Below, one piece after another: positions 27,270 to 38,972 of a stretch of 38,972 nt of DNA; the stretch's first letter is position 1; every line of letters begins with the position of its first letter. The notes below the pieces were generated by a model that worked only from the letters and a program-made list of their open reading frames with translations, did not search any database and was not told the DNA's origin. The stretch covers positions 1 to 38,972 of IMG/VR virus record IMGVR_UViG_3300020138_000014. One strand, 5' to 3'. Both the position numbers and the translations under genes were made by a program. The stretch comes from a virus. Taxonomy: Duplodnaviria; Caudoviricetes.

Positions 27270-27800
27270 CTAGGACGCAGTGGGAACCAAGGCGAGGAAC
27301 CGCTCAAGCGCGCCACGCGCCTTCGTCGCCTTTCGGCCACCCGCGAACGTGGCGTCCACCAGACCGCCCGCGGTCGTCACCCGCACCTTGACGCTTTGCG
27401 CGGCAAGCATGGCCTGCGCGAGGTCCAGCGGTATCGAAAAATCCTTCGTCGAGAACCTCGCCACCGGCGCGCGCGCCCTGACGCCCAGGTTGCGGAAGGA
27501 CGTGGGCCGCGATGCCTCCAGCGGCTCCAGGACGTGCACCGCACCGTCGATGTTCAACGCCACGCTCTCGATGGCCACGTATTCGTTCACGACCTCGACG
27601 ACCAGCACGGCCTCGTCGGGATAGCTGCTGGTCCAGCGGGCGCCGAATGACGCGCACACCATGCGCATCCCGCAGTCGAGGCCGTGCGGGTCGATCCACA
27701 CGCGCTGCGCTCCATCGAACTCGTCAACGGCGGTCTTCGCCTTGGCGGCAATCGCCGGCCCGCTGGCCAGCGCGAACAGGACGGGCACGATCCACTTCAT
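27270..27800 (-). CDS. Exported protein coupled to the repressor gene
   Basis: Signal peptide MKWIVPVLFALASGPAIAA; ATGA overlap with the repressor stop. Confidence 0.75.
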   Translation of the reverse strand: MKWIVPVLFALASGPAIAAKAKTAVDEFDGAQRVWIDPHGLDCGMRMVCASFGARWTSSYPDEAVLVVEVVNEYVAIESVALNIDGAVHVLEPLEASRPTSFRNLGVRARAPVARFSTKDFSIPLDLAQAMLAAQSVKVRVTTAGGLVDATFAGGRKATKARGALERFLALVPTAS

Positions 27801-28219
27801 TTGCCTTTGCTCCTTGCCTTCTTGGGTAGTCGCTCGGCGACGTAGTTTTCGATGGTCTCGCATATCAGCGCGGAACTCTTGATCGCCACCCCGTACAGCA
27901 CGTCGCGGACGAACTCGCCTTCCCGCGGCGGCAGTTCGAGCGCCGATGCGGTCCGGCTTGTTTCCCCGAGCGCGTCCAGGCGTGACGCAAGTTCCACCTC
28001 GCCTTTGCTCTGGAAGATCGGGACTTCGCCCGTAGCCAGGTAGTGACCGCGCACCTGCAGCTTTTCGACCAGGGCCTTGGCCTCGTCGGGCGCCAGCTTC
28101 TTTACGCGGCCGGCCGTGAGGCTCTTCACGCGATCCAGTGACACGCCCAAGACGTCGGCCAGTTCGCGCTGGCTGAGCCCCTTGGCATCCATGATCGCTC
28201 GAACAAGTGAAGAAACCAC
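27797..28219 (-). CDS. Phage repressor (XRE-type HTH)
   Basis: GLSQRELADVLGVSLDRVKSLTAGRVKKL...YLATGE; divergent from the ner-like gene. Confidence 0.85.
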   Translation of the reverse strand: MVSSLVRAIMDAKGLSQRELADVLGVSLDRVKSLTAGRVKKLAPDEAKALVEKLQVRGHYLATGEVPIFQSKGEVELASRLDALGETSRTASALELPPREGEFVRDVLYGVAIKSSALICETIENYVAERLPKKARSKGK

Positions 28220-28268
28220 GCCTCACCCCTTGCAAGGTGGAAAAATCACACTTAGGATTGGTCCTAAG
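28207..28268 (+). promoter_or_regulatory. Early promoter and operators
   Basis: TTGCAA(28230)-17 bp-TAGGAT(28253); GTG-N7-CAC boxes at 28207-28219 and 28237-28249; CTTAGGA-N4-TCCTAAG palindrome at 28251-28268. Confidence 0.7.
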
Positions 28269-28320
28269 GCTCCGGGCATCCCCCCGGACCCAAGGCCCAA
28301 GATTCCGAAGGATACACGCC

Positions 28321-28527
28321 GTGACCACTCCCGCCCCGAGCCTCGATCTGGTCCGCCAGGTGCGTGCCGGCTTCACCCTCCAGGGCACCAGCCTCAAGCG
28401 CTGGTGCCGCGAGAACGGCATCCGCTTCAACAACGCCCGCGACGCCCTGATCGGCAGCTGGAACGGCCCGAAGGGCAAGGCCGTCCGCACCCGCATCGTC
28501 CGCGCCGCGAAGGTCGATGCGGCATGA
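28321..28527 (+). CDS. Ner/Cro-like DNA-binding protein
   Basis: VRAGFTLQGTSLKRWCRENG...LIGSWNGPKG. Confidence 0.8.
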   Translation: MTTPAPSLDLVRQVRAGFTLQGTSLKRWCRENGIRFNNARDALIGSWNGPKGKAVRTRIVRAAKVDAA

Positions 28528-28778
28528 CCGTGCTCTCGACCTACGCGCTGACCCAGTGCGACGTGCCCGCAGTGGACGCCCAGGAGTGGGCGCGGCTCAG
28601 CCACCGCCAGCGCGAGCAGCTGCGCGCCACCGGCTACCGCCACGTGCTGCCGGTCGACGGCCTGCAGCGGCACAACGCCGACCTGCCGGCGCCCGAATGG
28701 GTGCCCACGCAGGTGCAGCCCGGCAGCACCCCGCTGCCGATCTACCCGCAGCCCTTCCACCTGCCACCGGGGGCCTGA
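28524..28778 (+). CDS. Hypothetical early protein
   Basis: ATGA-coupled in the early operon. Confidence 0.6.
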   Translation: MTVLSTYALTQCDVPAVDAQEWARLSHRQREQLRATGYRHVLPVDGLQRHNADLPAPEWVPTQVQPGSTPLPIYPQPFHLPPGA

Positions 28779-28779
28779 C

Positions 28780-28875
28780 ATGACCGAACAGGATTACGCA
28801 CGCCACCTCCTGCGCCTGCTGCGCGAAGCCGCGGCCGCCGCGCCCGCCATCCCGACCGGGGACCACTGGGCATGA
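28780..28875 (+). CDS. Very small hypothetical protein
   Basis: MTEQDYARHLLRLLRE...; fills the operon gap with coupling. Confidence 0.45.
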   Translation: MTEQDYARHLLRLLREAAAAAPAIPTGDHWA

Positions 28876-29024
28876 CCGCGCGCCTGGCCACCCGCAATCT
28901 CCGCGCGCGGCTCAACCTCGCGCGCTTCGCCGCTGCCCCGGAACGGCGGGTCACCGGCAGCTTCGCCAAGGGCCGCGAGTTCGCGTTCTTCGTCCGCCAC
29001 GAGCGCGCGAGGTACTCGGCATGA
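28872..29024 (+). CDS. Small hypothetical protein
   Basis: MTARLATRNLRARLNL...; ATGA coupling at both ends. Confidence 0.55.
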   Translation: MTARLATRNLRARLNLARFAAAPERRVTGSFAKGREFAFFVRHERARYSA

Positions 29025-29239
29025 CCGCGCGCACCTACGCCGCCCTGGTGGCCCGCCGCCGCGTCGCCGAGGACGCCTACCTCGCCGCCACCTACCACCA
29101 CCTGCAGATCCCCCGCGACCGGGGCCACCGCGACGAGCGCATGGAGTGGGGCCTGATCCGATCGGCCTGCGCTCGCGAGCTGCAGGCGCTCAAGGGCCAG
29201 ATCACCCGCGCCGCCCGCGCCGAGGGACTCCGCCAGTGA
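29021..29239 (+). CDS. Hypothetical protein
   Basis: Coupled ORF in the early operon. Confidence 0.6.
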   Translation: MTARTYAALVARRRVAEDAYLAATYHHLQIPRDRGHRDERMEWGLIRSACARELQALKGQITRAARAEGLRQ

Positions 29240-29529
29240 GCCGGCAAAGCGTTTACGCCCGCCTGCTGTTCGGCCTGGCCGGCTCCAGCTATCGCGGCCT
29301 GCGCCTGGGCCAGTTGGCCGAGGGCATCGGCGAGTCCAGCCCCACCACCCTGCGCAACCTACAGCGCATGGAGGACGACGGCCTGGTCGAGCGCTCGCCG
29401 CACGACAAGGACAACTGGCGGCTGTCGCCGCGCGTCGTCCAGATCGCACACGCCCACGCCGCCGAAGTGGCCCGCGAGGAGCGGGCGCTGGCGGATTTCA
29501 CGAACCGCTACACCCGTAGCCCCGATTGA
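29236..29529 (+). CDS. IclR/MarR-like winged-HTH protein
   Basis: LGQLAEGIGESSPTTLRNLQRMEDDGLVER...WRLSPR. Confidence 0.75.
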   Translation: MSRQSVYARLLFGLAGSSYRGLRLGQLAEGIGESSPTTLRNLQRMEDDGLVERSPHDKDNWRLSPRVVQIAHAHAAEVAREERALADFTNRYTRSPD

Positions 29530-29543
29530 ACGAGGAGACACGC

Positions 29544-30446
29544 ATGGCATCGAACAAGGGCCGCAAGGCACTGGCGCCGGCCAAGATCAGCGGCGACCAG
29601 CTGGATGGGGACAAACTGGCCGCGCGCCACGGCGAGCTGGTGGCGATGAACGAGCACCAGAGCGCCATCGTCGACCAGTTCGGCGACGGCCTGCCCTGGC
29701 ACCCGGACCACTACGAGGCCGCGATCCGCAGCGAGCTGCGCCGCGGCGCTGACGCATTCCTGCGGGCCGGCAGCTATCTCGTGGTCGCCCGCGAGTGCGC
29801 CGGACACGGCGAATGGGCCGGCATGCTGCAGCGGATCGGGCTGGAACCGCGCAGCGCCCAGCGGATGATGGAGGCCGCCCGCCGGGTCCAGGCGCTGCCA
29901 AATGCGTCGGCGCCGACGCATTTGCTGGCAGCCGCCAAGAACCAGACCAAGCTGGTCGAGCTGCTCTCCCTGCCCGAGGAGCAGTTCACCGAGCTGGCCA
30001 CAACCGGCGAAACGGGCGACCTGACGCTCGATGACGTCGAGAGGATGACGTTCCGCGAACTCCGCGCCGCCGTCCGCGAGGCCCGCGCCGACCTGTCCGC
30101 CAAGGACGAGCGCATCGCCAAGCTGTCGGCGGACGTCGAGAAGGAGCACGAGAAGCTCACCAAGGCCCAGCGCAAGTGGAAGACCGCCACGCCGGACGAG
30201 CGCCAGACCACGCTGGAGCAGCGCGTCGTGCAGGCGAAGCTGGACATCCTGGCGCAGGTGGGCAGCCAGAAGGCCGGCCTTGCCGCCGCCTTCATCGACC
30301 TGGCCGAGCACTGCAACGAGAACGACCTCGACAGCAGTGCCTTCATGGGCGATGTGCTCGGCGAGCTGCTCAATGCGGTGCGCGAGGTGCGCGACGGCTA
30401 CGAGTACGGCTTCGCCATCCCCGTGGTCAACGACGCGGGGGCCTGA
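29544..30446 (+). CDS. DUF3102-like protein
   Basis: GSYLVVARE..GHGEW...AQRMM; DDVERMTFRELR; precedes the transposase in B3-like phages. Confidence 0.75.
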   Translation: MASNKGRKALAPAKISGDQLDGDKLAARHGELVAMNEHQSAIVDQFGDGLPWHPDHYEAAIRSELRRGADAFLRAGSYLVVARECAGHGEWAGMLQRIGLEPRSAQRMMEAARRVQALPNASAPTHLLAAAKNQTKLVELLSLPEEQFTELATTGETGDLTLDDVERMTFRELRAAVREARADLSAKDERIAKLSADVEKEHEKLTKAQRKWKTATPDERQTTLEQRVVQAKLDILAQVGSQKAGLAAAFIDLAEHCNENDLDSSAFMGDVLGELLNAVREVRDGYEYGFAIPVVNDAGA

Positions 30447-30450
30447 TGCC

Positions 30451-32256
30451 ATGCAGGGGGAGGCGCTACTCCAATCAGCCGCAGGGGAACTGCTGGCGGC
30501 CAAGCACGGCGAGAAGCGGCGCATCGTCGAGCAGCTGGCCGCGCAGCTGGGCGTCAGCGTGCCCACGGCCTTCCGCCGGCTGAGCACCATCACCGGCGCG
30601 GTCAAGCCGCGCAAGCGCCGCAGCGACGCCGGCGCCCTGGCGCTGAGCCGCGAGGAGGCGGTGGCCATCGCCGCCCTGGTGGAGGAAACCCGCCGGCTCA
30701 CCGGCACCGGCGCGCTGCCGGTGGAGGAGGCGGTGCAGATCCTCCGCGCCAACGGCCGCATCGGCGCGGCGCGCGTGGACCCGGAGACGGGCGAATGGCG
30801 CCCGCTCAGCGTGTCGTCGATCTGCCGCGCCATCCGCCATTACGGGCTGCACCGCGACCAGCTGTCGGCGCCGTCGCCGGCAGCGCGGCTGTCGTCGCCG
30901 CACCCGAACCACCTCTGGCAGATCGACGCCTCGGTGAGCCGCCAGTTCTACCTGGCCGACGACGGCACGCGCGTCATGCCGAAGGTCGAGTTCTACCGCG
31001 GCAAGCCCGGCAACTTCGCAAAGATCGCCGACCGGCGCCTGTGGCGCTACGCCTGCACCGACCACGCCAGCGGCTGCATCGAGGTGTTCTACGTGCAGGG
31101 CGCCGAGAGCAGCGCCAACCTGCTGTCCGCGCTGATCCACGCGATGACGCTGCGGCCCGACGGCACGATGCACGGCATCCCGAAGGCGCTGATGATGGAC
31201 CCGGGCAGCGCGGTGACCGCCGCCACCACCCGCAACTTCGTCGCCGCCGCCGGCATCGACCTGATCGTCAATGAAGTGGGCAACGCCCGCGCCAAGGGCC
31301 AGGTCGAGAGCGCCAACTACATCATCGAGACGCACTTCGAGGCCGCGCTGAAGCTGCGCGATCCGGTGACATCGCTCGAAGAGATCAACCGCCTGGCGCA
31401 GCAGTGGTCGCGCGCCTACAACGCCACCCGCATCCACAGCCGCACGCGCATGACGCGCCGCGACGGCTGGCTGCGCATCACGCCCGAGCAGCTGGTGCTG
31501 GCGCCGCCGGTGGACGTGCTGCGCCAGCTGGCCACCAGCGCGCCCAAGCCCTGCACCGTACGCGACTGCCTGATCCGCTTCCGCGGCAACGTCTACGACG
31601 TTCGCGGCGTGCCCGGCCTGGTCAACGGCCAGCGCGTGGCGGTGGTGCTCAACGCCCTGGACACGGAGGGCAGCGTGCGCGTGATCATGCCCGGTGAAGC
31701 CGACAGCAAGCCGGTGCACTACATCGCGCCGCGCGTCGGCCAGGATGACTGGGGATTCCTGCAGACCGCCGCGCAGGTCGGCGCCGAGTTCAAGTCGCTG
31801 CCGGAGACGCCGGCCGACGCCGCGCGCAAGGAGCTCGACCGCGTGGCGATGGAGGTCCAGAGCGACGCCGAGGCCGCGGCCGCGCGCAAGGCCAAGCGCC
31901 TGGCGTTCGGCGGCAAGGTCGACCCGATGAAGCACCTGCGCGAGGCGGTCATCGCGCCCGCGCTGCCGCGCGCCGGCACCGCCGCGCCGCTGCAGGCGCC
32001 CGAGGTGATCGCCGCGCAGCGCATCGAGCCCGCGCCCGTACGCGCCGAGATCCCGCCGCTCAACCACGTCGACGCCGCCATGCGCCTCAAGCCGCTGGTC
32101 GAGCGCAGCGGCGCCACCTGGTCGGGCGACATGTACCTGCGCACGGAGCAGCGCTGGCCCGATGGCGTGCCGGTGCACGAGATCGAGGCCTGGGCCGCCG
32201 AGCTGGCGATGCCTGCGCGCGGCGGCCTGCGCCTGGTCGATGGAGGTGCGGCATGA
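30451..32256 (+). CDS. DDE transposase (MuA/B3-type)
   Basis: RKRRSDAG, HPNHLWQIDAS, MDPGSA, NARAKGQVE. Confidence 0.93.
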   Translation: MQGEALLQSAAGELLAAKHGEKRRIVEQLAAQLGVSVPTAFRRLSTITGAVKPRKRRSDAGALALSREEAVAIAALVEETRRLTGTGALPVEEAVQILRANGRIGAARVDPETGEWRPLSVSSICRAIRHYGLHRDQLSAPSPAARLSSPHPNHLWQIDASVSRQFYLADDGTRVMPKVEFYRGKPGNFAKIADRRLWRYACTDHASGCIEVFYVQGAESSANLLSALIHAMTLRPDGTMHGIPKALMMDPGSAVTAATTRNFVAAAGIDLIVNEVGNARAKGQVESANYIIETHFEAALKLRDPVTSLEEINRLAQQWSRAYNATRIHSRTRMTRRDGWLRITPEQLVLAPPVDVLRQLATSAPKPCTVRDCLIRFRGNVYDVRGVPGLVNGQRVAVVLNALDTEGSVRVIMPGEADSKPVHYIAPRVGQDDWGFLQTAAQVGAEFKSLPETPADAARKELDRVAMEVQSDAEAAAARKAKRLAFGGKVDPMKHLREAVIAPALPRAGTAAPLQAPEVIAAQRIEPAPVRAEIPPLNHVDAAMRLKPLVERSGATWSGDMYLRTEQRWPDGVPVHEIEAWAAELAMPARGGLRLVDGGAA

Positions 32257-32402
32257 AGCGCACCCCCGAGCAGCGCGCAGCGATCGAGCGCGCCAAGAAG
32301 CCCGGCCGCAGCCCTTTCGGCGCGTGGCGCGGCGAGAACGGCCAGCGCGAACGCGACACCCAGCTGATCGTGCCGAAGCGGCACAGGCTGGTGCGCGCAT
32401 GA
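32253..32402 (+). CDS. Small basic protein between transposase A and B genes
   Basis: MKRTPEQRAAIERAKK...; ATGA-coupled on both sides. Confidence 0.55.
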   Translation: MKRTPEQRAAIERAKKPGRSPFGAWRGENGQRERDTQLIVPKRHRLVRA

Positions 32403-33523
32403 CCCTGCGCCTGAAATCCGTGATGACCGCCGCCGGCATCCGCCAGGGCGCGCTCGCCGATGCGGTCGGGATCAGCCGTTCCGCCCTCAACGTTTTCATC
32501 AACCGCGGCGTGCTGCCGGTCGGTGTCGACCGGGAAAAGTTCTACGCCGGTGTCGACGAATTCCTGCGGTCGCGACAAGCCGACTGTTCCACGTGGCACC
32601 AGGACGCCACCCCTGCCAACGACGAATCCAACGAGGACCCTGCCATGTTGCTCCGCAAGCAATCCCTCACGCCGCAGGCGCGGCGCGCGTTCTCCCTGCC
32701 GGCCGATCCGTTCGCCGATCCGGCGACGCCCGAGGAAGTATTCCTCAGCCCCGACATCCGCTACGTGCGCGAGAGCATGTACCAGGTGGCGCGCCACGGC
32801 GGCTTCCTGGCGGTGGTCGGCGAGAGCGGCGCCGGCAAGAGCACGCTGCGCGAGGAGCTGTCCGACCGCATCCGCCGCGACGAGCAGGCGGTGATCATGA
32901 TCGAGCCCTACGTGCTGGCCAGCGAGGGCACCGACCTCATCGGCAAGACCCTGCGCAGCCACCACATTGCCGAGGCCATCATGGCCGCCGTCGCGCCGCT
33001 GGCGAAGGCGAAAAGCAGCCCGGAGGCGCGCTTCCGCCAGCTGCACGAAGCGCTGCGCGACAGCGCCCGCGCCGGCCATTCGCACGTGTTGGTGATCGAG
33101 GAGGCGCACAGCCTGCCGCTGCCCACGCTCAAGCACCTCAAGCGCTTCCGCGAGCTGAAGGACGGCCTGCGCCCGCTGCTGTCGGTGATCCTGATCGGCC
33201 AGCCCGAACTCGCGGTCAAGCTGTCCGAGCACAACCCCGAGGTGCGCGAGGTGGTGCAGCGCATCGAGATCGTCACGCTGCCGCCGCTCGACAAGGAGCT
33301 CGACGGCTACCTCGCGCACCGCTTCAAGCGGCTGGGCGTGTCGCTGGATTCGGTGGTGACGCGCGACGCGATCGACGCGCTGCGCACCAAGCTCACGCCC
33401 ACGCGCAGCAGCGGCACGCTGCTGTACCCGCTCGCCGTGCACAACGCCCTGGCCGCCGCGATGAACCGCGCGGCGGACCTGGGCGTGCCGGTGGTCAACG
33501 CCGATGTCGTGCGGGGGGTGTGA
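32399..33523 (+). CDS. Transposition ATPase (MuB/ExeA-like) with N-terminal HTH
   Basis: GESGAGKS, VIEEAH, LIGQPEL. Confidence 0.92.
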   Translation: MTLRLKSVMTAAGIRQGALADAVGISRSALNVFINRGVLPVGVDREKFYAGVDEFLRSRQADCSTWHQDATPANDESNEDPAMLLRKQSLTPQARRAFSLPADPFADPATPEEVFLSPDIRYVRESMYQVARHGGFLAVVGESGAGKSTLREELSDRIRRDEQAVIMIEPYVLASEGTDLIGKTLRSHHIAEAIMAAVAPLAKAKSSPEARFRQLHEALRDSARAGHSHVLVIEEAHSLPLPTLKHLKRFRELKDGLRPLLSVILIGQPELAVKLSEHNPEVREVVQRIEIVTLPPLDKELDGYLAHRFKRLGVSLDSVVTRDAIDALRTKLTPTRSSGTLLYPLAVHNALAAAMNRAADLGVPVVNADVVRGV

Positions 33524-33927
33524 TGGCGGACCACTATCCCAGCTTCATCGAACCGACCGTGCGCGAAGCCGAGCGCATCGAGCGGGGGGGGGCGATCGTG
33601 CCGAATGAGATCGCCGCGCTCCTGCGCCACAACGCCGACCAGATCGCGGACCTGGCCGAGGCGCTGCGGCAGGAGCGCGAGTCGTTCAAGTGGGCCGAGC
33701 GCGACTGCAATGAAATGGTCACGCGCCTCAACCGCCTGTCCGACCACCTGCGGACCGGCATCGTCAGCGATGTCATGCGCAAGCTGGCCGACTATGCCGG
33801 CGGATTCGTGGATTTCGAGCGCGGGATCGGCTACGACGACCCGAACCACCCGCCGCCCGACCCGTTCCCGGATCCCGTGCCGGCGCCGGCTCCGCGACGC
33901 GCCCGGCGCAAGGGAGGGCGGAGGTGA
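33523..33927 (+). CDS. Hypothetical protein
   Basis: MADHYPSF...; coupled; contains a G9 tract. Confidence 0.6.
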   Translation: MADHYPSFIEPTVREAERIERGGAIVPNEIAALLRHNADQIADLAEALRQERESFKWAERDCNEMVTRLNRLSDHLRTGIVSDVMRKLADYAGGFVDFERGIGYDDPNHPPPDPFPDPVPAPAPRRARRKGGRR

Positions 33928-34130
33928 TGCCCGTGCCCACCATCCGCCATTGCCAGGGCATGAAGCGCAACCGCGACGAGCACTCGCGCCGCCACGCGCC
34001 CGACCGCGACGACCTCCCGGTACTGCCGCAGATCGACGCCGCCGCCGTGGGCGACAGCATCGCCGCGGTTATGCAGAGCGCGTTCGAAGCCTCCTGCCTC
34101 GACTCCGCCAGCGCCGAGGTCGCCGACTGA
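33927..34130 (+). CDS. Hypothetical protein
   Basis: GGAGG RBS; coupled. Confidence 0.55.
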   Translation: MPVPTIRHCQGMKRNRDEHSRRHAPDRDDLPVLPQIDAAAVGDSIAAVMQSAFEASCLDSASAEVAD

Positions 34131-34513
34131 TGCAGCTCGGCCTGCTGCCGCAGGATCTGACGCCCGAGGCGGTGCTCGACGCACTGCAGGTGCGGCGCGG
34201 CGCGGCCAACGGCATCACCGCGCGCGACCTGGTCTACGTGATCACGCAGCGCGTCAACGCCGCCGACGAACGCAGGCTGCGCGACATCATCGTCAAGCTG
34301 CGCAAGGACGGGCACCCGATCTGCGCGCATCCCGCCCTCGGCTACCACTGGGCATCCAATCCCGGCGAACTCGACCAGGCCTGCATGTTCCTGGTCCACC
34401 GCGCCATGACTTCCCTGCAGCAGGCCAGCGCGATGAAGCGTATCGCGCTGCCCGACCTGTACGGGCAACTCGGGCTCAACCCGCCCGCCGACCACGAGGA
34501 AACCCCGGAATGA
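34130..34513 (+). CDS. Winged-HTH protein
   Basis: ERRLRDIIVKLRKDGHPICAHPALGY. Confidence 0.75.
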   Translation: MQLGLLPQDLTPEAVLDALQVRRGAANGITARDLVYVITQRVNAADERRLRDIIVKLRKDGHPICAHPALGYHWASNPGELDQACMFLVHRAMTSLQQASAMKRIALPDLYGQLGLNPPADHEETPE

Positions 34514-34803
34514 ACGACGTCCCCTCCAGCGTGATGCCCGACCACCTGCAGCAGGCCACCGAAGCCGCGCGCCAGCTGGTCGCCGCCTCCGCCGCCATCA
34601 TCGCCATGTACGCCAACGGCCGCCGGCCGGTGCTGATCATCGACGCGCCGCCGCCCTTCGTCACCGGCTCGATCAAGCGCCGCACGCCCAACGCCCTGGG
34701 CGGCGTGACCGAGGTGTACGCGGCCAGCTTCCACGGCTGCCAGCTCGAATGGATGCGCGACATCCCCGGCACCGCGCAGGTGCAGGCGGTGGGTCATGCC
34801 TGA
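34510..34803 (+). CDS. Hypothetical protein
   Basis: Coupled; ASFHGCQLEW. Confidence 0.7.
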   Translation: MNDVPSSVMPDHLQQATEAARQLVAASAAIIAMYANGRRPVLIIDAPPPFVTGSIKRRTPNALGGVTEVYAASFHGCQLEWMRDIPGTAQVQAVGHA

Positions 34804-35023
34804 GCGCTACATCATCATTCCGGAGCACGCCGTGGTCGGCGTCGACGGCGCCTTCGAGGACGCCTACAGCGCCGCCGTGCAGGCCTCCCGCCGGGTCGAG
34901 AAAGACCGGGTGCCGCGCGTGGTCGTCCAGGTCATCGCACACGTGCGCGAGAGCCGGGTGCCGAAGGTCGACATCGTGGAGATCGCGCAGATCGCCCGTA
35001 TCGCGGGGGTGCACGATGGCTGA
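34796..35023 (+). CDS. Hypothetical protein
   Basis: Coupled ORF. Confidence 0.6.
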   Translation: MPERYIIIPEHAVVGVDGAFEDAYSAAVQASRRVEKDRVPRVVVQVIAHVRESRVPKVDIVEIAQIARIAGVHDG

Positions 35024-35438
35024 GCCCCGCATCGTCCAGATCCTGCGCGCTCACGGCGAATGGATGCCGAAGGCCGAGCTGCTCGATCGCTACTGCCAGA
35101 AGGGCGCCACGCGCTCCACCGCCTACAACGCGGTTTCCCTGGCGCTCGACAACGGCTGGATCATGCGCAGGGGCAAGCGCGGAGCCTACGCGTTCGCGAT
35201 GGCCGACGACGCGCCCAAGGTGGTCGGCGGATTCCGCTGCCCCCGCGGGCGCGTGAGGGCGGAAAGTGACAGCCCGGCCGAGCCTGCCAGGCCCTACGTC
35301 GGCCCGGCGTTCGATCGCGCGCAGCTCGCGCCCTCGGTCGGGCTGGTGTGCGATCCCGAGGTCATGCCGCCAGAGGTCGGCCGGATCATCGACTCGCTGC
35401 ACCGCCACTTCGACGCCCTGTTCATGGGCGTGGAGTAG
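35016..35438 (+). CDS. Winged-HTH-like hypothetical protein
   Basis: TRSTAYNAVSLALDNGWIMRRG. Confidence 0.6.
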   Translation: MAEPRIVQILRAHGEWMPKAELLDRYCQKGATRSTAYNAVSLALDNGWIMRRGKRGAYAFAMADDAPKVVGGFRCPRGRVRAESDSPAEPARPYVGPAFDRAQLAPSVGLVCDPEVMPPEVGRIIDSLHRHFDALFMGVE

Positions 35439-35443
35439 ACGTC

Positions 35444-35671
35444 GTGCCGCGCGAGCAGGGCCTCCCGCTGATTCTCGCCGCCATGCGGTTCGCGCTGTGG
35501 GCGGCGCAGCGGGAAAAGCCGCCCACGTGGCGCGAGGTGCAGGGCTTCCTCGGCTGCACGTCGAACAAGGCGCGCAAGTGGCGCCGCAACTACCTCAAGG
35601 CGAAGGCCCTCCCATTCCACCCACACCCGGCGGCAACCGGCACCACCAAGCAAACGGAGACAGCACCATGA
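35444..35671 (+). CDS. Small HTH-like protein
   Basis: GGAG RBS; PTWREVQGFLGCTSNKARKWR. Confidence 0.6.
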   Translation: MPREQGLPLILAAMRFALWAAQREKPPTWREVQGFLGCTSNKARKWRRNYLKAKALPFHPHPAATGTTKQTETAP

Positions 35672-36294
35672 CCACCAACTCAGTTCCCGCCGGCTACCGC
35701 CTCGACCCGCTGGGCCGCCTCGTGCCCGAGTCGCAGATCAAGGGCATCGACCTCGCGCGCGACGAGCTCGTGCGCGAGATCGTCGGCAAGGCCCGCGAGC
35801 TGGAGCAGGCGATCGGCAAGTTCAAGCGCCAGACCTTCGACGACATCGCCGCCTTCGTCGACCTCAGCGCCGAGCGTTACGGCGCGCGCCTGGGCGGCAA
35901 GAAGGGCAACGTCAGCCTGGTGTCGTTCGACGGCCGCTACAAGGTCTTGCGCGCGATGGCCGACAACATCGTCTTCGACGAGCGCCTGCAGGCGGCCAAG
36001 GCCCTGATCGACGAGTGCCTCAAGCAGTGGAGCGAGGGCGCGCCGGCCGAGCTGCAGACCATCGTGCAGGACGCCTTCCGCGTCGACCAGGAGGGCAACA
36101 TCCGCGTGCAGCAGGTGCTCTCGCTGCGCCGCCTGGAGATCACCGACGCCCGCTGGAAGCGCGCGATGGACGCCATCGGCGACGCCATCCAGGTGACCGG
36201 CAGCCGCAGCTACCTGCGCGTCTACGAGCGCGTCGGCGATTCCGACCGCTACCAGCAGCTGGGCCTCGACCTGTCGTCGGCGGGGGGTGCGTGA
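35668..36294 (+). CDS. DUF3164 family protein
   Basis: GRLVP...GGKKGNVSLVSFDG...FDERLQAAKALIDEC. Confidence 0.88.
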   Translation: MTTNSVPAGYRLDPLGRLVPESQIKGIDLARDELVREIVGKARELEQAIGKFKRQTFDDIAAFVDLSAERYGARLGGKKGNVSLVSFDGRYKVLRAMADNIVFDERLQAAKALIDECLKQWSEGAPAELQTIVQDAFRVDQEGNIRVQQVLSLRRLEITDARWKRAMDAIGDAIQVTGSRSYLRVYERVGDSDRYQQLGLDLSSAGGA

Positions 36295-36539
36295 TGGCGG
36301 CCGCCTTCCACTTCGTGACCGTGCGTGTCCGCTTCCGCAACGGCACCTACACCTGCACGTTCCGCGGCCAGCGTGCCAGTTGCACGATATCCGCCCACGG
36401 CGCGGTGAAACGTCTGGCTGAGAAGCTCGGCTACAAGCCGGAAGCTCCGATCGAGCGCGTCGGCCAAGCCGCCGATGGCGGCGGCGAGGTCTGGAAGATC
36501 GTGGATCTGGGTGCGGGAGAAGCCCGTGGCCGCGTTTGA
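36294..36539 (+). CDS. Hypothetical protein
   Basis: GTY...RASCTISAHGAVKRLAEKL. Confidence 0.7.
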   Translation: MAAAFHFVTVRVRFRNGTYTCTFRGQRASCTISAHGAVKRLAEKLGYKPEAPIERVGQAADGGGEVWKIVDLGAGEARGRV

Positions 36540-36594
36540 GCTGATCGACAAGGTCGACCCCAGCATGGCTTGGACAGGCAAGTGCTTCACGTGA
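36526..36594 (+). pseudogene. Short ORF / probable remnant of a third cassette
   Basis: 22-aa ORF ending TGA-G-GTCTAAC, the same junction geometry as cassette A (TGA-G-GCCCAAC). Confidence 0.35.
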
Positions 36595-36595
36595 G

Positions 36596-36651
36596 GTCTA
36601 ACGCCTGAGTTAAGCCGCGCCGAAGGCGTCGGCTTGAATGAATTGTTGGGC
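36596..36651 (-). other. attC site 1 (integron cassette recombination site, 56 bp)
   Basis: Minus strand GCCCAAC-AATTCATTCAAGCCGACGCCTTCGGCGCGGCTTAACTCAGGC-GTTAGAC, very close to the aadA-type 59-base element. Confidence 0.93.
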
Positions 36652-36670
36652 AGCACACAAGGAGAACGAC

Positions 36671-36928
36671 ATGCTGAAAGCGTACCAATGCACCGACGAA
36701 GACCTGTACGCCGCCGAGAACGCAGAGCAGGCAGCCAAGCTGTGCGAGGAACAATCTGGCGAGCCGTGCGACGAGGGATACCCGCGCGAACTGGATGACG
36801 AAGAACTGGACAAGCCGCAACCGGCATTCGATGAGGATGAACGCCGCATCCCCGGCGAATACACCAGCGTGCGAGAAATGCTTGACCAGCAGACCGAACC
36901 GGGTTGGCTGGCTTGCAGTTGGTGGTGA
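36671..36928 (+). CDS. Cassette A acidic hypothetical protein
   Basis: AAGGAGA RBS; MLKAYQCTDEDLYAAENAEQA...; bounded by complementary cores GTTGGGC/GCCCAAC. Confidence 0.85.
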   Translation: MLKAYQCTDEDLYAAENAEQAAKLCEEQSGEPCDEGYPRELDDEELDKPQPAFDEDERRIPGEYTSVREMLDQQTEPGWLACSWW

Positions 36929-36929
36929 G

Positions 36930-36990
36930 GCCCAACACCCGGAGTTAAGCCGCGCCGCGAAGCGGCGTCGGATTGAATGAATTGTTAGCA
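36930..36990 (-). other. attC site 2 (61 bp)
   Basis: Minus strand TGCTAAC-AATTCATTCAATCCGACGCCGCTTCGCGGCGCGGCTTAACTCCGGGT-GTTGGGC. Confidence 0.93.
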
Positions 36991-37009
36991 CTCAAAGCGA
37001 GGTAACGAA

Positions 37010-37300
37010 ATGAGCGGGGGAAGCTTGGATTACGTCTACGGCAGGGTTGAAGACGCCGCATCGACAGTAGCTGCGCGGGCGGAGACGATGCTTCACCGCG
37101 CGTTTGCAGCCCACCTGCACAAGGTAGCCAAGGCTCTGAAAGACATGGAGTGGATGTTGTCGGGCGACAGGTCACCCGGCAGCGAGGAGCCTGCAATCCG
37201 CGCCGTGCTGCATGAGAGTGCAGAACTCGAAGCGGCGACTGAGCAGGCGCGCAAGGCGTTGGCTGACTTGAAAGCTGCATTGAGCGCTAACACGCGCTAG
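37010..37300 (+). CDS. Cassette B hypothetical protein (MSGGSLDY type)
   Basis: GAGGT RBS; MSGGSLDYVY...MEWMLSGD; reads through the core site at 37285-37291. Confidence 0.85.
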   Translation: MSGGSLDYVYGRVEDAASTVAARAETMLHRAFAAHLHKVAKALKDMEWMLSGDRSPGSEEPAIRAVLHESAELEAATEQARKALADLKAALSANTR

Positions 37301-37303
37301 GAC
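37285..37303 (-). other. Candidate attI-like primary insertion site
   Basis: Minus strand GTCCTAG-CGCGT-GTTAGCG: degenerate L box, 5-bp spacer and core, with no attC hairpin; core nearly complementary to R'' of attC2. Confidence 0.45.
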
Positions 37304-37359
37304 CCAACCCGCCGGCGTATCCATTGGATCCCTGGGCTATGCCCCACCAAGGCACCACT

Positions 37360-37914
37360 GTGAACCAGTCCCCCAACATTGCGACCCTCCGCAGCGCAGC
37401 CGAGTTGGCTGCCGACAAGCCGCACGGCGTGCGCGTGCGCTACATGGCCGGCTGCCGCTGCGATGCCTGCCGGAAGGCGAACTCGACCTACGAGAACGAG
37501 CGCCAGAAGGCAAGGCGCGCGGGCGACTGGAACGGCATCGTCCCGGCCGATCGCGCCCGCGCGCACATGCGCATGCTGTCGCGGCATGGCGTCGGCCGCC
37601 GCACGGTCCAGGCCTGCACCGACATCGCGGACACGGTGCTGCAGGACATCCGCACCGGCCGCAAGACGCACATCCGTGCCCGCACCGAACGCCTGATCCT
37701 GGCCGTCACGCGCGAGCAGGCAGCCGACCACGCCTACGTCCCGGCGGGCCGCTCCCACCAGCGCATCCGCCTGCTGCTCGAGGAGGGCTACACCGAGGCC
37801 TATCTGGCCAGGCGCCTGGGCTACGCGAACCGCTACCTGCAGTTCAACGAGCGCCGCATCACCGTGCGCAATGCCGCCCGGATCGAGCGGCTGTACCGGG
37901 AACTGACCGAATGA
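37360..37914 (+). CDS. Zn-binding/HTH phage protein
   Basis: HGVRVRYMAGCRCDACRKAN; start uncertain. Confidence 0.75.
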   Translation: MNQSPNIATLRSAAELAADKPHGVRVRYMAGCRCDACRKANSTYENERQKARRAGDWNGIVPADRARAHMRMLSRHGVGRRTVQACTDIADTVLQDIRTGRKTHIRARTERLILAVTREQAADHAYVPAGRSHQRIRLLLEEGYTEAYLARRLGYANRYLQFNERRITVRNAARIERLYRELTE

Positions 37915-38381
37915 CCCGCCGCGCCGCCAACCCCGCCCTGGTGCGCAAGCGCACCCTGGCCGCCATCCACGCCACGGCGCACCAGCTGGGCCTGGAGGAT
38001 GACGTCTACCGCGACCTGGTCGAGCGCGTCAGCGCCGAGCACGGCCCCGCCCAGCGCAGCGCCGGCAAGTGCACCCCGCGCCAGCTCAGCGCCATCGCCA
38101 ACGAGCTGCGCCGGCAGACCGGCAAGCCCGCCCAGGCGGCCGCCAGCGCCCGCGTATGGGCCGGCAAGCCGAAGGGCGTGCTCTCGCCCCAGCTGGCCAA
38201 GGTCGAAGCGCTGCTGGCCGACTCCGGCCGCGAATGGGCCTACGCCCACGCCCTGGCCAAGCGCCTGTGCGGCGGCGTCGCCCGCGTCGAATGGTGCGAC
38301 AGCCACCAGCTGTCCAAGGTCATCGCCGCCATGCAGATCGACGCCGACCGCCGCGCCCGCCGGGCCGACCCGGGGAAGTAG
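37911..38381 (+). CDS. gemA: GemA / Mu gp16 (DUF1018)
   Basis: LAAIH...LGLEDDVYRDL...KVEALL...WAY. Confidence 0.85.
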   Translation: MTRRAANPALVRKRTLAAIHATAHQLGLEDDVYRDLVERVSAEHGPAQRSAGKCTPRQLSAIANELRRQTGKPAQAAASARVWAGKPKGVLSPQLAKVEALLADSGREWAYAHALAKRLCGGVARVEWCDSHQLSKVIAAMQIDADRRARRADPGK

Positions 38382-38382
38382 C

Positions 38383-38739
38383 ATGAAGCCGATGGAAGCC
38401 CGCCGCGCCGAACTCCTGGAGCATGTGGCCGCCCGCGCGGCTGCCACGGCGGTGGACCTCGGCCTGGCGTCCGACCTGGCCGACCAGGTGGGCGCCGCCG
38501 TCGCCGACGCCCTGGCCGACGACTTCGGCGGCCAGGTCCTGTCCTTCCCCAAGGACTGTGCCTACCGCCTCTCCCAGCGCGACCGGGCCATCCTCGAAGC
38601 CCACCGCCGCGGCGCCTCGCTCGCCGAACTGGCCCACCAGTACAAGATCACCGACCGCGGCCTCCGCATGCTCCTCCGCCGAGCCGAATCCCGCGACCGC
38701 GACCTCCGCCAGCAGCAGCTGTTCGGGAATCCCCAGTAA
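38383..38739 (+). CDS. mor: Mor/C family transcription activator
   Basis: FGGQVLSFPK...RDRAI...ELAHQYKITDR. Confidence 0.88.
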   Translation: MKPMEARRAELLEHVAARAAATAVDLGLASDLADQVGAAVADALADDFGGQVLSFPKDCAYRLSQRDRAILEAHRRGASLAELAHQYKITDRGLRMLLRRAESRDRDLRQQQLFGNPQ

Positions 38740-38831
38740 CGCAATTCAGGCGGCCCCGCCGCATTGCAGCCAGTGCAATCTCTTTGCATCGGCGTCCGAG
38801 TTCATCCACCATCTTCCGGGCTCTTCCGGCT

Positions 38832-38873
38832 AAATATCTCGGTGGACCCCCCTGAATATCTCACCCCGGGTCA
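38832..38873 (-). repeat. Phage end with two transposase-binding sites
   Basis: Minus strand TGACCCGGGGTGAGATATT...CCGAGATATTT; GAGATA at positions 12-17 and 34-39. Confidence 0.8.
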
Positions 38874-38972
38874 GCAGCGGCTGCCGGCGCGGCCGCGGCG
38901 TCGCCGGCGATTTCCGCCAGCAGCGCCAGCAGCGACTCGGTGTTGAACGGCCGGCCAAGGCGGAAATCGGTC

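What the first reader, a model, noticed from the sequence alone, without database searches (positions are those of the whole stretch)
36596..37300. Both cassette ORFs run antisense to attC polarity but sense to the phage early transcript
Seen: the canonical attC top strand (TAACAATTCATTCAAG...GCTTAACTC...GTT) is on the minus strand, while both ORFs with strong RBSs are on the plus strand. Known: ordinary cassette ORFs are co-oriented with their attC and read from Pc. Inference: such inverted cassettes would be silent in a host integron but expressed here, suggesting a phage-adapted cassette class, possibly formed from phage genes or stored silently in host arrays.
Basis: partly seen in the sequence, partly recalled or inferred. 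Interest (0 to 1): 0.8.

Follow-up and report, generated by a model that had tools for sequence, protein, structure and literature searches.

The report
Backwards integron cassettes in a phage
A Mu-like phage keeps two small genes of unknown function in integron-type gene cassettes built the opposite way round from bacterial ones, so they are likely read from the phage's early promoter and would stay silent in a host integron, a layout that dominates among the viral sequences sampled and likely marks a phage-specific pool of swappable genes.

Summary
Confirmed. Two aadA-type attC sites (36596-36651, 36930-36990) carry their extrahelical T and G on the + strand, so + is the recombining bottom strand; the annotated aadA2 cassette shows the same polarity with its gene on the other strand. 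Both ORFs (85, 96 aa) lie on +, inside the co-oriented early gene run of a complete Mu-like phage without a tyrosine recombinase. Each unit is attC + RBS + ORF with paired R boxes; cassette 2 recurs in another contig with homology ending at both crossover points. The layout is general: 94 of 138 attC sites in viral contigs have a gene start on the bottom strand only (2 canonical only), against 0 of 46 in intI-linked bacterial arrays. ORF relatives occur as plain phage genes or reversed cassettes, never canonical ones. Some phages carry a true integron integrase or attI-like sites at the end of such arrays. Storage in host arrays was not seen; expression and recombination are untested; attC2 and the docking site are degenerate. 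Eight paper searches found no description of the reversed class; this scan has noted it on many other genomes.

The parts
36526..36594 (+). 22-codon ORF ending 1 nt before the first R box; possibly the 3' remnant of an older cassette (same stop-to-AAC spacing as ORF1)
   Evidence: spacing seen in 6 of 43 reversed cassettes; no relative found; inference
36596..36651 (-). attC1, aadA type; top strand on -, bottom strand on +; crossover between 36601 and 36602; extrahelical T36629, G36636
36602..36935 (+). cassette 1 (334 bp): attC1 body + RBS + ORF1 + R-box end; R''/R' pair 7 of 7 in the circular form
   Evidence: fold improves from -11.1 to -17.6 kcal/mol when the ends are brought together
36671..36928 (+). 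ORF1, 85-aa acidic alpha/beta phage protein of unknown function
   Evidence: 76 relatives; no Pfam/PHROG/NCBIfam family; AF2 pLDDT 93; best fold matches are uncharacterised phage proteins, none in PDB by Foldseek
36930..36990 (-). attC2, aadA type, slightly degenerate (7-nt L'-R' spacer, L-stem mismatch A36972); bottom strand on +; crossover between 36935 and 36936; extrahelical T36968, G36975
36936..37290 (+). cassette 2 (355 bp): attC2 body + RBS + ORF2; R boxes pair in the circular form; the same unit lies in L115 between other neighbours
   Evidence: (-12.4 to -16.5 kcal/mol)
37010..37300 (+). ORF2, 96-aa helical phage protein of unknown function; reads through the crossover AAC as an in-frame Asn and stops 2 codons later
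   Evidence: 76 relatives, the closest 20 or so mostly ending in LSAN or a close variant plus a variable tail; AF2 pLDDT 86; Atlas clusters 100% viral
37284..37323 (+). terminal junction (crossover between 37290 and 37291) and putative docking site; loosely attI-like, not a statistically supported attI
   Evidence: rank 398 of 620 under a bacterial attI model, 2 of 620 under a model of 5 phage array ends, within background
29146..38739 (+). co-oriented early gene run of a Mu-like phage (regulator, transposase A, transposition protein B, kil-like, DUF3164, ..., cassettes, phrog_1590, gemA, mor)
   Evidence: no terminator-like site on + between 27841 and 38761

Best explanation
These are two integron-type attC cassettes of a reversed, phage-associated design (attC, then RBS, then gene, all on the attC bottom strand), likely inserted and excised by an integron integrase supplied from outside this genome and likely transcribed as part of the phage's early operon. 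Shown: polarity, unit structure, paired R boxes, recurrence of cassette 2 as an exact unit, absence of a tyrosine recombinase in this complete phage, and the strong viral bias of the layout. Inferred: recombination at the bottom-strand AAC as in ordinary integrons (the upstream attC travels with its gene; array ends in other phages match bacterial attI); the array grows at its promoter-distal end (37290), the reverse of a bacterial integron; the integrase comes from the host or from a co-infecting phage, some of which encode IntI. Inferred reason for the reversal: it makes the phage and host cassette pools mutually silent, so a host cassette, often an anti-phage gene, lands antisense to the phage promoter, while a phage cassette lands antisense to Pc. 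In this genome the degenerate attC2 and docking site suggest that the array may now be slow or frozen.
For: Polarity. Unit mobility: window cassette 2 aligns with L115 from the AAC of attC2 to the AAC at 37289-37291 and not beyond; among 39 pairs of related reversed cassettes, 36 differ in context, with mean identity 0.74 in the upstream attC (background 0.58) against 0.44 before it and 0.46 after the 3' junction (backgrounds 0.40, 0.46); L006/L075 share ORF and upstream attC at 100% with unrelated flanks. R-box rule: 33 of 43 reversed cassettes with attC at both ends pair 4 of 4, 10 pair 3 of 4 (candidates were chosen for pairing only among AACs, the attC position itself fixed them). Viral bias: 94 inverted-only, 3 both, 2 canonical-only, 39 neither of 138 viral sites; 0 inverted, 11 canonical, 35 neither of 46 intI-linked sites; 9, 1, 51, 191 of 252 other bacterial-genome sites; chance rate 169 of 3160. 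Phage cargo. Machinery in other phages: G001 (complete; major capsid, primase, holin) encodes an integron integrase (TIGR02249, 347 bits, cut-off 265) as the last gene of a reversed array, with a junction AAC 26 nt before its ATG; four more viral loci show a similar motif before the integrase match; three phage array ends score 15 bits or more on a model of six bacterial attI sites, background maximum 5.8. No PF00589 match in the window. Anti-phage cargo of host cassettes: abstract of 10.1101/2024.07.02.601686.
Against: No empty site or precise cassette gain/loss was found for this locus: the one close relative (runs X2-X4, one study) differs between 36562 and 37341, boundaries 39 and 50 nt outside the crossovers, which fits ordinary module exchange as well. 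The window's docking site fails the bacterial attI model (-0.2 bits). attC2 departs from the consensus spacing. ORF1 relatives are almost all plain phage genes (14 of 15 distinct loci without attC, 1 at an edge; one of the 14 has only relic-like ends by eye), and 63 of 95 ORF2 loci show no cassette trace. Several near-identical ORF pairs (0.96-0.99) have different upstream attC bodies (0.46-0.76), so attC bodies also change by other routes. Not every phage array is reversed: TJE1 is canonical. The sample is limited to sites matching one aadA-type pattern and their neighbours; the start-signal rule misses most canonical cassettes. The mutual-silence reason is untested.
Confidence: 0.72

Rival explanations
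1. Fossils: two reversed cassettes were once inserted here by a host integrase at a non-specific GTT (attG-type) site, were kept because the genes face the transcript, and no longer move; this locus changes by homologous module exchange. The polarity then reflects how the cassettes were made plus selection for expression, with no docking site.
For: Docking site not attI-like by the bacterial model; attC2 degenerate; a close relative differs outside the crossover points; integrases insert cassettes at GWT sites across genomes (passages of 10.1101/2022.09.11.507474).
Against: Explains this locus but not the class: near-identical reversed cassettes in unrelated contexts, attI-like array ends and phage-borne IntI show recent movement elsewhere; attC1 is intact and both R-box pairs are kept.
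Confidence: 0.3
2. Reversed strand choice: a phage integrase recombines the other strand, so that functionally each gene belongs with the attC behind it and the cassettes are canonical for that enzyme.
For: R-box pairing across a gene is the same under both models; top-strand recombination of aadA-type sites is possible at low rate (passages of PMC5027507); four phage integrases group apart from ten others (but they were fetched by likeness to one another).
Against: The upstream attC, not the downstream sequence, travels with the gene; ORF2 here has no attC behind it; array ends match bacterial attI on the AAC side; extrahelical bases sit where IntI reads the + strand as bottom.
Confidence: 0.05
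3. The genes are ordinary phage genes and the attC-like hairpins are solo elements (ORF-less cassettes or regulatory hairpins) dropped between them; there is no gene cassette.
For: Most relatives of both ORFs lack any attC; attC1 folds well as RNA on the + strand (z -2.8; attC2 does not, z -0.2).
Against: R boxes pair across each gene; homology with L115 spans attC + leader + ORF and stops at both crossovers; GC drop is confined to the units.
Confidence: 0.05
4. The cassettes are stored silently in host integron arrays and are picked up by phages from there.
For: The attC type is the same as in Lysobacteraceae and betaproteobacterial arrays, so a host integrase could in principle take them up.
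Against: 0 of 46 intI-linked sites inverted; inverted runs in bacterial genomes lie beside Erf, phage integrase or primase genes (L317, L357); no ORF1 or ORF2 relative in a canonical array. The bacterial sample is small (5 of 64 parts of the collection scanned).
Confidence: 0.08

Closest known systems
CALINs in bacteriophage genomes (Qi, Rajabal, Ghaly, Tetu, Gillings 2023, PMC9892861; read: parts 1-4 of 7 of the text, a term search, supplement part 1 of 2; figures and the Dryad file not seen)
   Same: Two or more attC sites in a phage, small genes between them, no integrase; five of six tested phage sites recombined with IntI1.
   Different: The text read does not remark on genes lying on the bottom strand ('opposite' and 'reverse' 0 hits). 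Its main example TJE1 is canonical. MW202573 of their Fig. 2D reads as reversed by eye at the one site seen whole and at partial views of others, so the layout may be visible in their figure or files without comment.
Bacterial integron cassettes, aadA/Xanthomonadales-type attC (anatomy as in Nivina et al. 2016, PMC5027507; passages read)
   Same: R and L boxes, two extrahelical bases on the R''-L'' arm, GAA loop, paired R boxes, one promoterless gene per unit.
   Different: Gene on the bottom strand, attC before the gene; no intI or Pc here. [quoted passage not shown]
SALINs and attG insertion (Loot et al., bioRxiv 10.1101/2022.09.11.507474; passages and abstract read)
   Same: Cassettes away from any integrase, inserted at GWT; expression from a nearby foreign promoter; excision outside the insertion point.
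   Different: Those are ordinary cassettes in either orientation as wholes; here two tandem units share one internal reversal, typical of viral contigs.
Reverse integrons of Treponema (PMC4909258; passages read)
   Same: intI points the same way as the cassette genes, as in phage G001.
   Different: By that description intI is turned relative to the array; in G001 intI keeps the usual geometry relative to attC polarity and the genes are turned.

Membership tests
attC site | R' (RYYYAAC) and R'' (GTTRRRY) boxes as inverted repeats, paired in the circular cassette | tested here: met
   7 of 7 for cassette 1, one A-C mismatch in 7 for cassette 2
attC site | L boxes with extrahelical bases on the R''-L'' arm, unpaired central spacer, terminal loop | tested here: met
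   attC2 has a 7-nt spacer and one stem mismatch
attC site | Recombined by IntI as a folded bottom strand at the AAC | not testable with these tools
   indirect only: likeness to aadA2/aadA7 sites; unit boundaries
Canonical integron gene cassette | Gene on the top strand, followed by its attC | tested here: not met
   genes on the bottom strand, preceded by their attC
Canonical integron gene cassette | Moves as a unit bounded by the crossover points | tested here: met
   cassette 2 versus L115; class-wide; for cassette 1 only relic-level evidence
Complete integron | intI gene | tested here: not met
   no PF00589 match in the 100%-complete record
Complete integron | attI site | tested here: inconclusive
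Complete integron | Pc promoter reading the top strand | tested here: not met
   no sigma-70-like site in 27500-38972 (the scan is insensitive at this GC); genes face the other way
CALIN | Two or more attC sites close together without integrase | tested here: met
Mu-like (transposable) phage | Transposase A, transposition protein B, GemA, Mor, head and tail genes | tested here: met

The most novel reading that the evidence does not exclude
Phages run their own mirror-image integron system: a shared pool of reversed cassettes, docked at attI-like sites at the far end of early operons and moved by host or phage-encoded IntI, whose polarity keeps it orthogonal to the host's defence-rich cassette pool. 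New cassettes would be born inside phage operons: an attC that arrived antisense puts its bottom strand on the coding strand, and IntI excision to a later AAC lifts out attC + RBS + phage gene as a new reversed cassette. Gene families that exist both as plain phage genes and as cassettes (ORF1, ORF2) would then record cassette genesis, the long-open question of integron biology.
Probability: 0.4. Interest if true: 0.9.

Novelty: new variant of a known kind. Interest (0 to 1): 0.74.

Why it matters
Integrons are known as a bacterial device whose function depends on cassette genes facing Pc. A reversed design that dominates in viral contigs, reuses the same attC and attI-like sites, and in some phages sits beside a true IntI would mean that phages exchange small early genes by integron chemistry. 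It offers a testable reason for the polarity (immunity to host defence cassettes) and a tractable route to the origin of cassettes, because the cargo families exist in both free and cassette form. It also means that attC-based surveys that assign genes to the upstream top strand mis-pair these cassettes.

Tried and rejected
Single-protein scans of viral contigs found 0 loci for ORF2 and 1 for ORF1; alignments were needed. Search for an empty site through the downstream gene: 47 loci, none with DNA likeness across the junction and none with an attC at score 10.2 or more; cultured phages gave only about 70% matches to DUF3164 or gemA-mor. No RNA holder listed; this says nothing about expression. 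Short joints between attC1 and attC2 in runs X1, X2-X7 have sides of about 20-30 nt and come from other attC sites; not taken as excision. Function of the ORFs: no family in PHROGs, NCBIfam or Pfam above cut-off; no PDB match by Foldseek; the wide structural search could not be run; the Atlas link of ORF1 to YosH_C (score 0.86, TM 0.59) is a lead only. A PWM and an HMM for attI did not single out the window's docking site; the five phage ends used were hand-picked for likeness. The first detector missed attC2 and 36 of 143 pattern hits; the second misses short sites such as TJE1's and found none in MW202573, 3/49 or the first 50 kb of PH101, so PH101 and 3/49 stay unclassified. P12002L: one tested site lies with its bottom strand on the coding strand and the other the opposite way. 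The integrase tree (14 rows) is too small and circular to claim a phage clade. Frame lock: 15 of 15 read-through cases use AAC as Asn, but the search window was 45 nt and rows are related; ORF1 here stops before the junction, so it is not a rule for all.

Full report
Setting. The window is a complete virus record (CheckV 100%) of a Mu-like phage: head, tail and lysis genes on the - strand, and from about 29146 to 38739 a tightly packed + strand run with a regulator, transposase A, transposition protein B, kil-like, DUF3164, phrog_1590, gemA and mor. No tyrosine recombinase is encoded. The finding lies in this run, between a phrog_16970 gene and phrog_1590, in a stretch of 60% GC against 66-75% around it.

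Observation. Two attC sites lie at 36596-36651 and 36930-36990. On the + strand each reads R' box, spacer, L' box, stem, GAA loop, stem with an unpaired T, L'' box with an unpaired G, 5-nt spacer, R'' box. By the rules in PMC5027507 (passages) this is the bottom strand. The fold shows the T bulge on the 3' arm; a detector that uses the spacer lengths and the extrahelical position calls both sites bottom-on-plus, with no false hit at 10.5 or more in 1.04 Mb of shuffled DNA (its first version agreed with the pattern strand in 107 of 107 scored sites and missed 36 of 143). An annotated class 1 integron confirms it without recall: the window's + strand matches the aadA2 attC on the strand opposite to aadA2. 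ORF1 and ORF2 are on +, each with a strong RBS about 19 nt after the R'' box. So the genes are antisense to attC polarity, as stated.

Anatomy. With the crossover at the bottom-strand AA/C, cassette 1 is 36602-36935 and cassette 2 is 36936-37290. Bringing the ends of each together restores the R box and deepens the fold (-11.1 to -17.6 and -12.4 to -16.5 kcal/mol). ORF1 stops just before its junction; ORF2 reads through the AAC as Asn, and most of its closest relatives end in LSAN or a close variant with variable tails, some of which read like the next attC. Cassette 2 aligns with a unit in L115 from AAC to AAC, with unrelated DNA on both sides. attC2 has a 7-nt spacer and a stem mismatch. The terminal site after 37290 has the look of a half-site but does not pass a model of six attI sites from intI-linked bacterial arrays (-0.2 bits, rank 398 of 620) and is second of 620, within background, under a model of five hand-picked phage array ends.

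Is it a class? I scanned viral contigs (107 loci) and bacterial genomes (153 stretches from 5 of 64 parts) with one aadA-type pattern, found all attC sites in them, dropped duplicates, sites under score 10.5 and sites with under 170 nt of flank, and asked symmetrically whether an RBS plus start opens 40 codons or more within 6-45 nt after the R box on the top strand (canonical) or the bottom strand (inverted). Viral: 94 inverted-only, 3 both, 2 canonical-only, 39 neither of 138. intI-linked bacterial: 0, 0, 11, 35 of 46. Other bacterial: 9, 1, 51, 191 of 252. By locus: 52 inverted and 2 canonical of 67 viral; 3 and 41 of 110 bacterial (Fisher p 1.5e-21; loci are not independent); chance rate 5.3%. 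Six of the nine bacterial inverted sites are in L317 and L357, beside Erf, a phage-type integrase and a primase. The rule is insensitive for canonical cassettes, which is why 'neither' is large there.

Cargo. Of 118 ORF2 loci, 95 are distinct: 10 touch a bottom-strand attC (one, L278, may be chance), 12 show only a paired R box (3 or 4 probably chance), 63 show nothing, 10 are at contig edges, none is canonical. The attC types beside ORF2 range from aadA-type to long AT-rich sites. Of 19 ORF1 loci, 15 are distinct: 14 without attC, 1 at an edge; L001 is a plain gene in a recombination module, and L191 has relic-like ends. Neither protein has a named family; ORF1 folds confidently and matches only uncharacterised phage proteins; ORF2's nearest clusters are wholly viral.

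Mechanism. Across 39 pairs of related reversed cassettes the upstream attC follows the gene while the DNA before it and after the 3' AAC is at background, which fixes the unit and the strand. R boxes pair 4 of 4 in 33 of 43 cassettes. Three phage array ends score 15 bits or more on the bacterial attI model. One complete phage, G001, with capsid, primase and holin genes, encodes an integron integrase above the family cut-off (44% identical to IntI1) as the last gene of a reversed array, 26 nt behind a junction AAC; four further viral loci show a similar motif before the integrase match, two of them with bottom-strand attC calls close by at 10.5 or more and one with several. So the geometry intI-attI-array is the bacterial one, but the genes point towards attI and would be read from a phage promoter at the far end. 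For the window I infer the same chemistry with an integrase in trans. The reason for the reversal is not shown; the simplest is mutual silence, given that many host cassettes are anti-phage genes (abstract). Excision outside the insertion point is reported for IntI (abstract passage), which makes in-place birth of reversed cassettes from phage genes plausible, though it leaves the R-box pairing to be explained.

Against. No empty site was found. Runs X2-X4 (one study) hold a relative (96% identical over 35600-36262 in X2) whose contig joins 36562 to 37341; from contig lengths I infer about 720 nt of other sequence between, with boundaries outside the crossovers. This shows a variable locus, not cassette-precise change. 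TJE1 shows that canonical arrays also occur in phages. No RNA data bear on expression.

Novelty. Phage CALINs are published (PMC9892861), without comment on gene polarity in the parts read; one of their records appears reversed, and their figures and Dryad files, which I could not see, may show it. Searches returned no paper describing reversed cassettes in phages; the library lacks most subscription papers. Earlier notes of this scan report the same layout on other genomes; they are not counted as evidence. Verdict: real, a new variant of the integron cassette system, with this locus a small and possibly ageing example. Interest 0.74.

Noticed in passing
L043:398-1390 (-) = G001:C1:30481-31407: Complete 43.5-kb phage with a true integron integrase (TIGR02249, 347 bits) as last gene of a reversed cassette array, junction 26 nt before the ATG; related integrases with a similar upstream motif in L453, L454, L455, L457 (L457 matched in pieces).
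   Followed up: partly
L048, L078, L028, L068, L133 (ends of reversed arrays): Array ends resemble attI sites of Lysobacteraceae/betaproteobacterial integrons (15 bits or more for three, about 7 for two).
   Followed up: partly
L317:8490-10480 (Rhodanobacter caeni) and L357:170-1180: Reversed arrays inside prophage-like regions of bacterial genomes; L317 is in a named cultured strain and could serve as a test case.
   Followed up: partly
L462:2280-3730 (MW202573): A published phage CALIN whose sites read as bottom strand on the coding strand by eye.
   Followed up: partly
window 36638-36670: An ATG inside the L''-R'' arm of attC1, directly after a TGA, is in frame with ORF1 and could allow coupling from read-through of the hairpin; the same ATG in attC2 runs into a stop.
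   Followed up: no
   Followed up: partly
L062/L111, L016/L071, L129/L133, L115/L357: Near-identical cassette genes (96-99%) with different upstream attC bodies: attC replacement by an unexplained route.
   Followed up: no
L191:2920-3290: ORF1 relative with cassette-like ends and a decayed attC, lying between terminase-like and portal-like genes rather than in an early operon.
   Followed up: partly
L006, L021, L024, L049, L075, L002: One 86-aa reversed cassette recurs in six viral contigs with different neighbours; function not examined.
   Followed up: no
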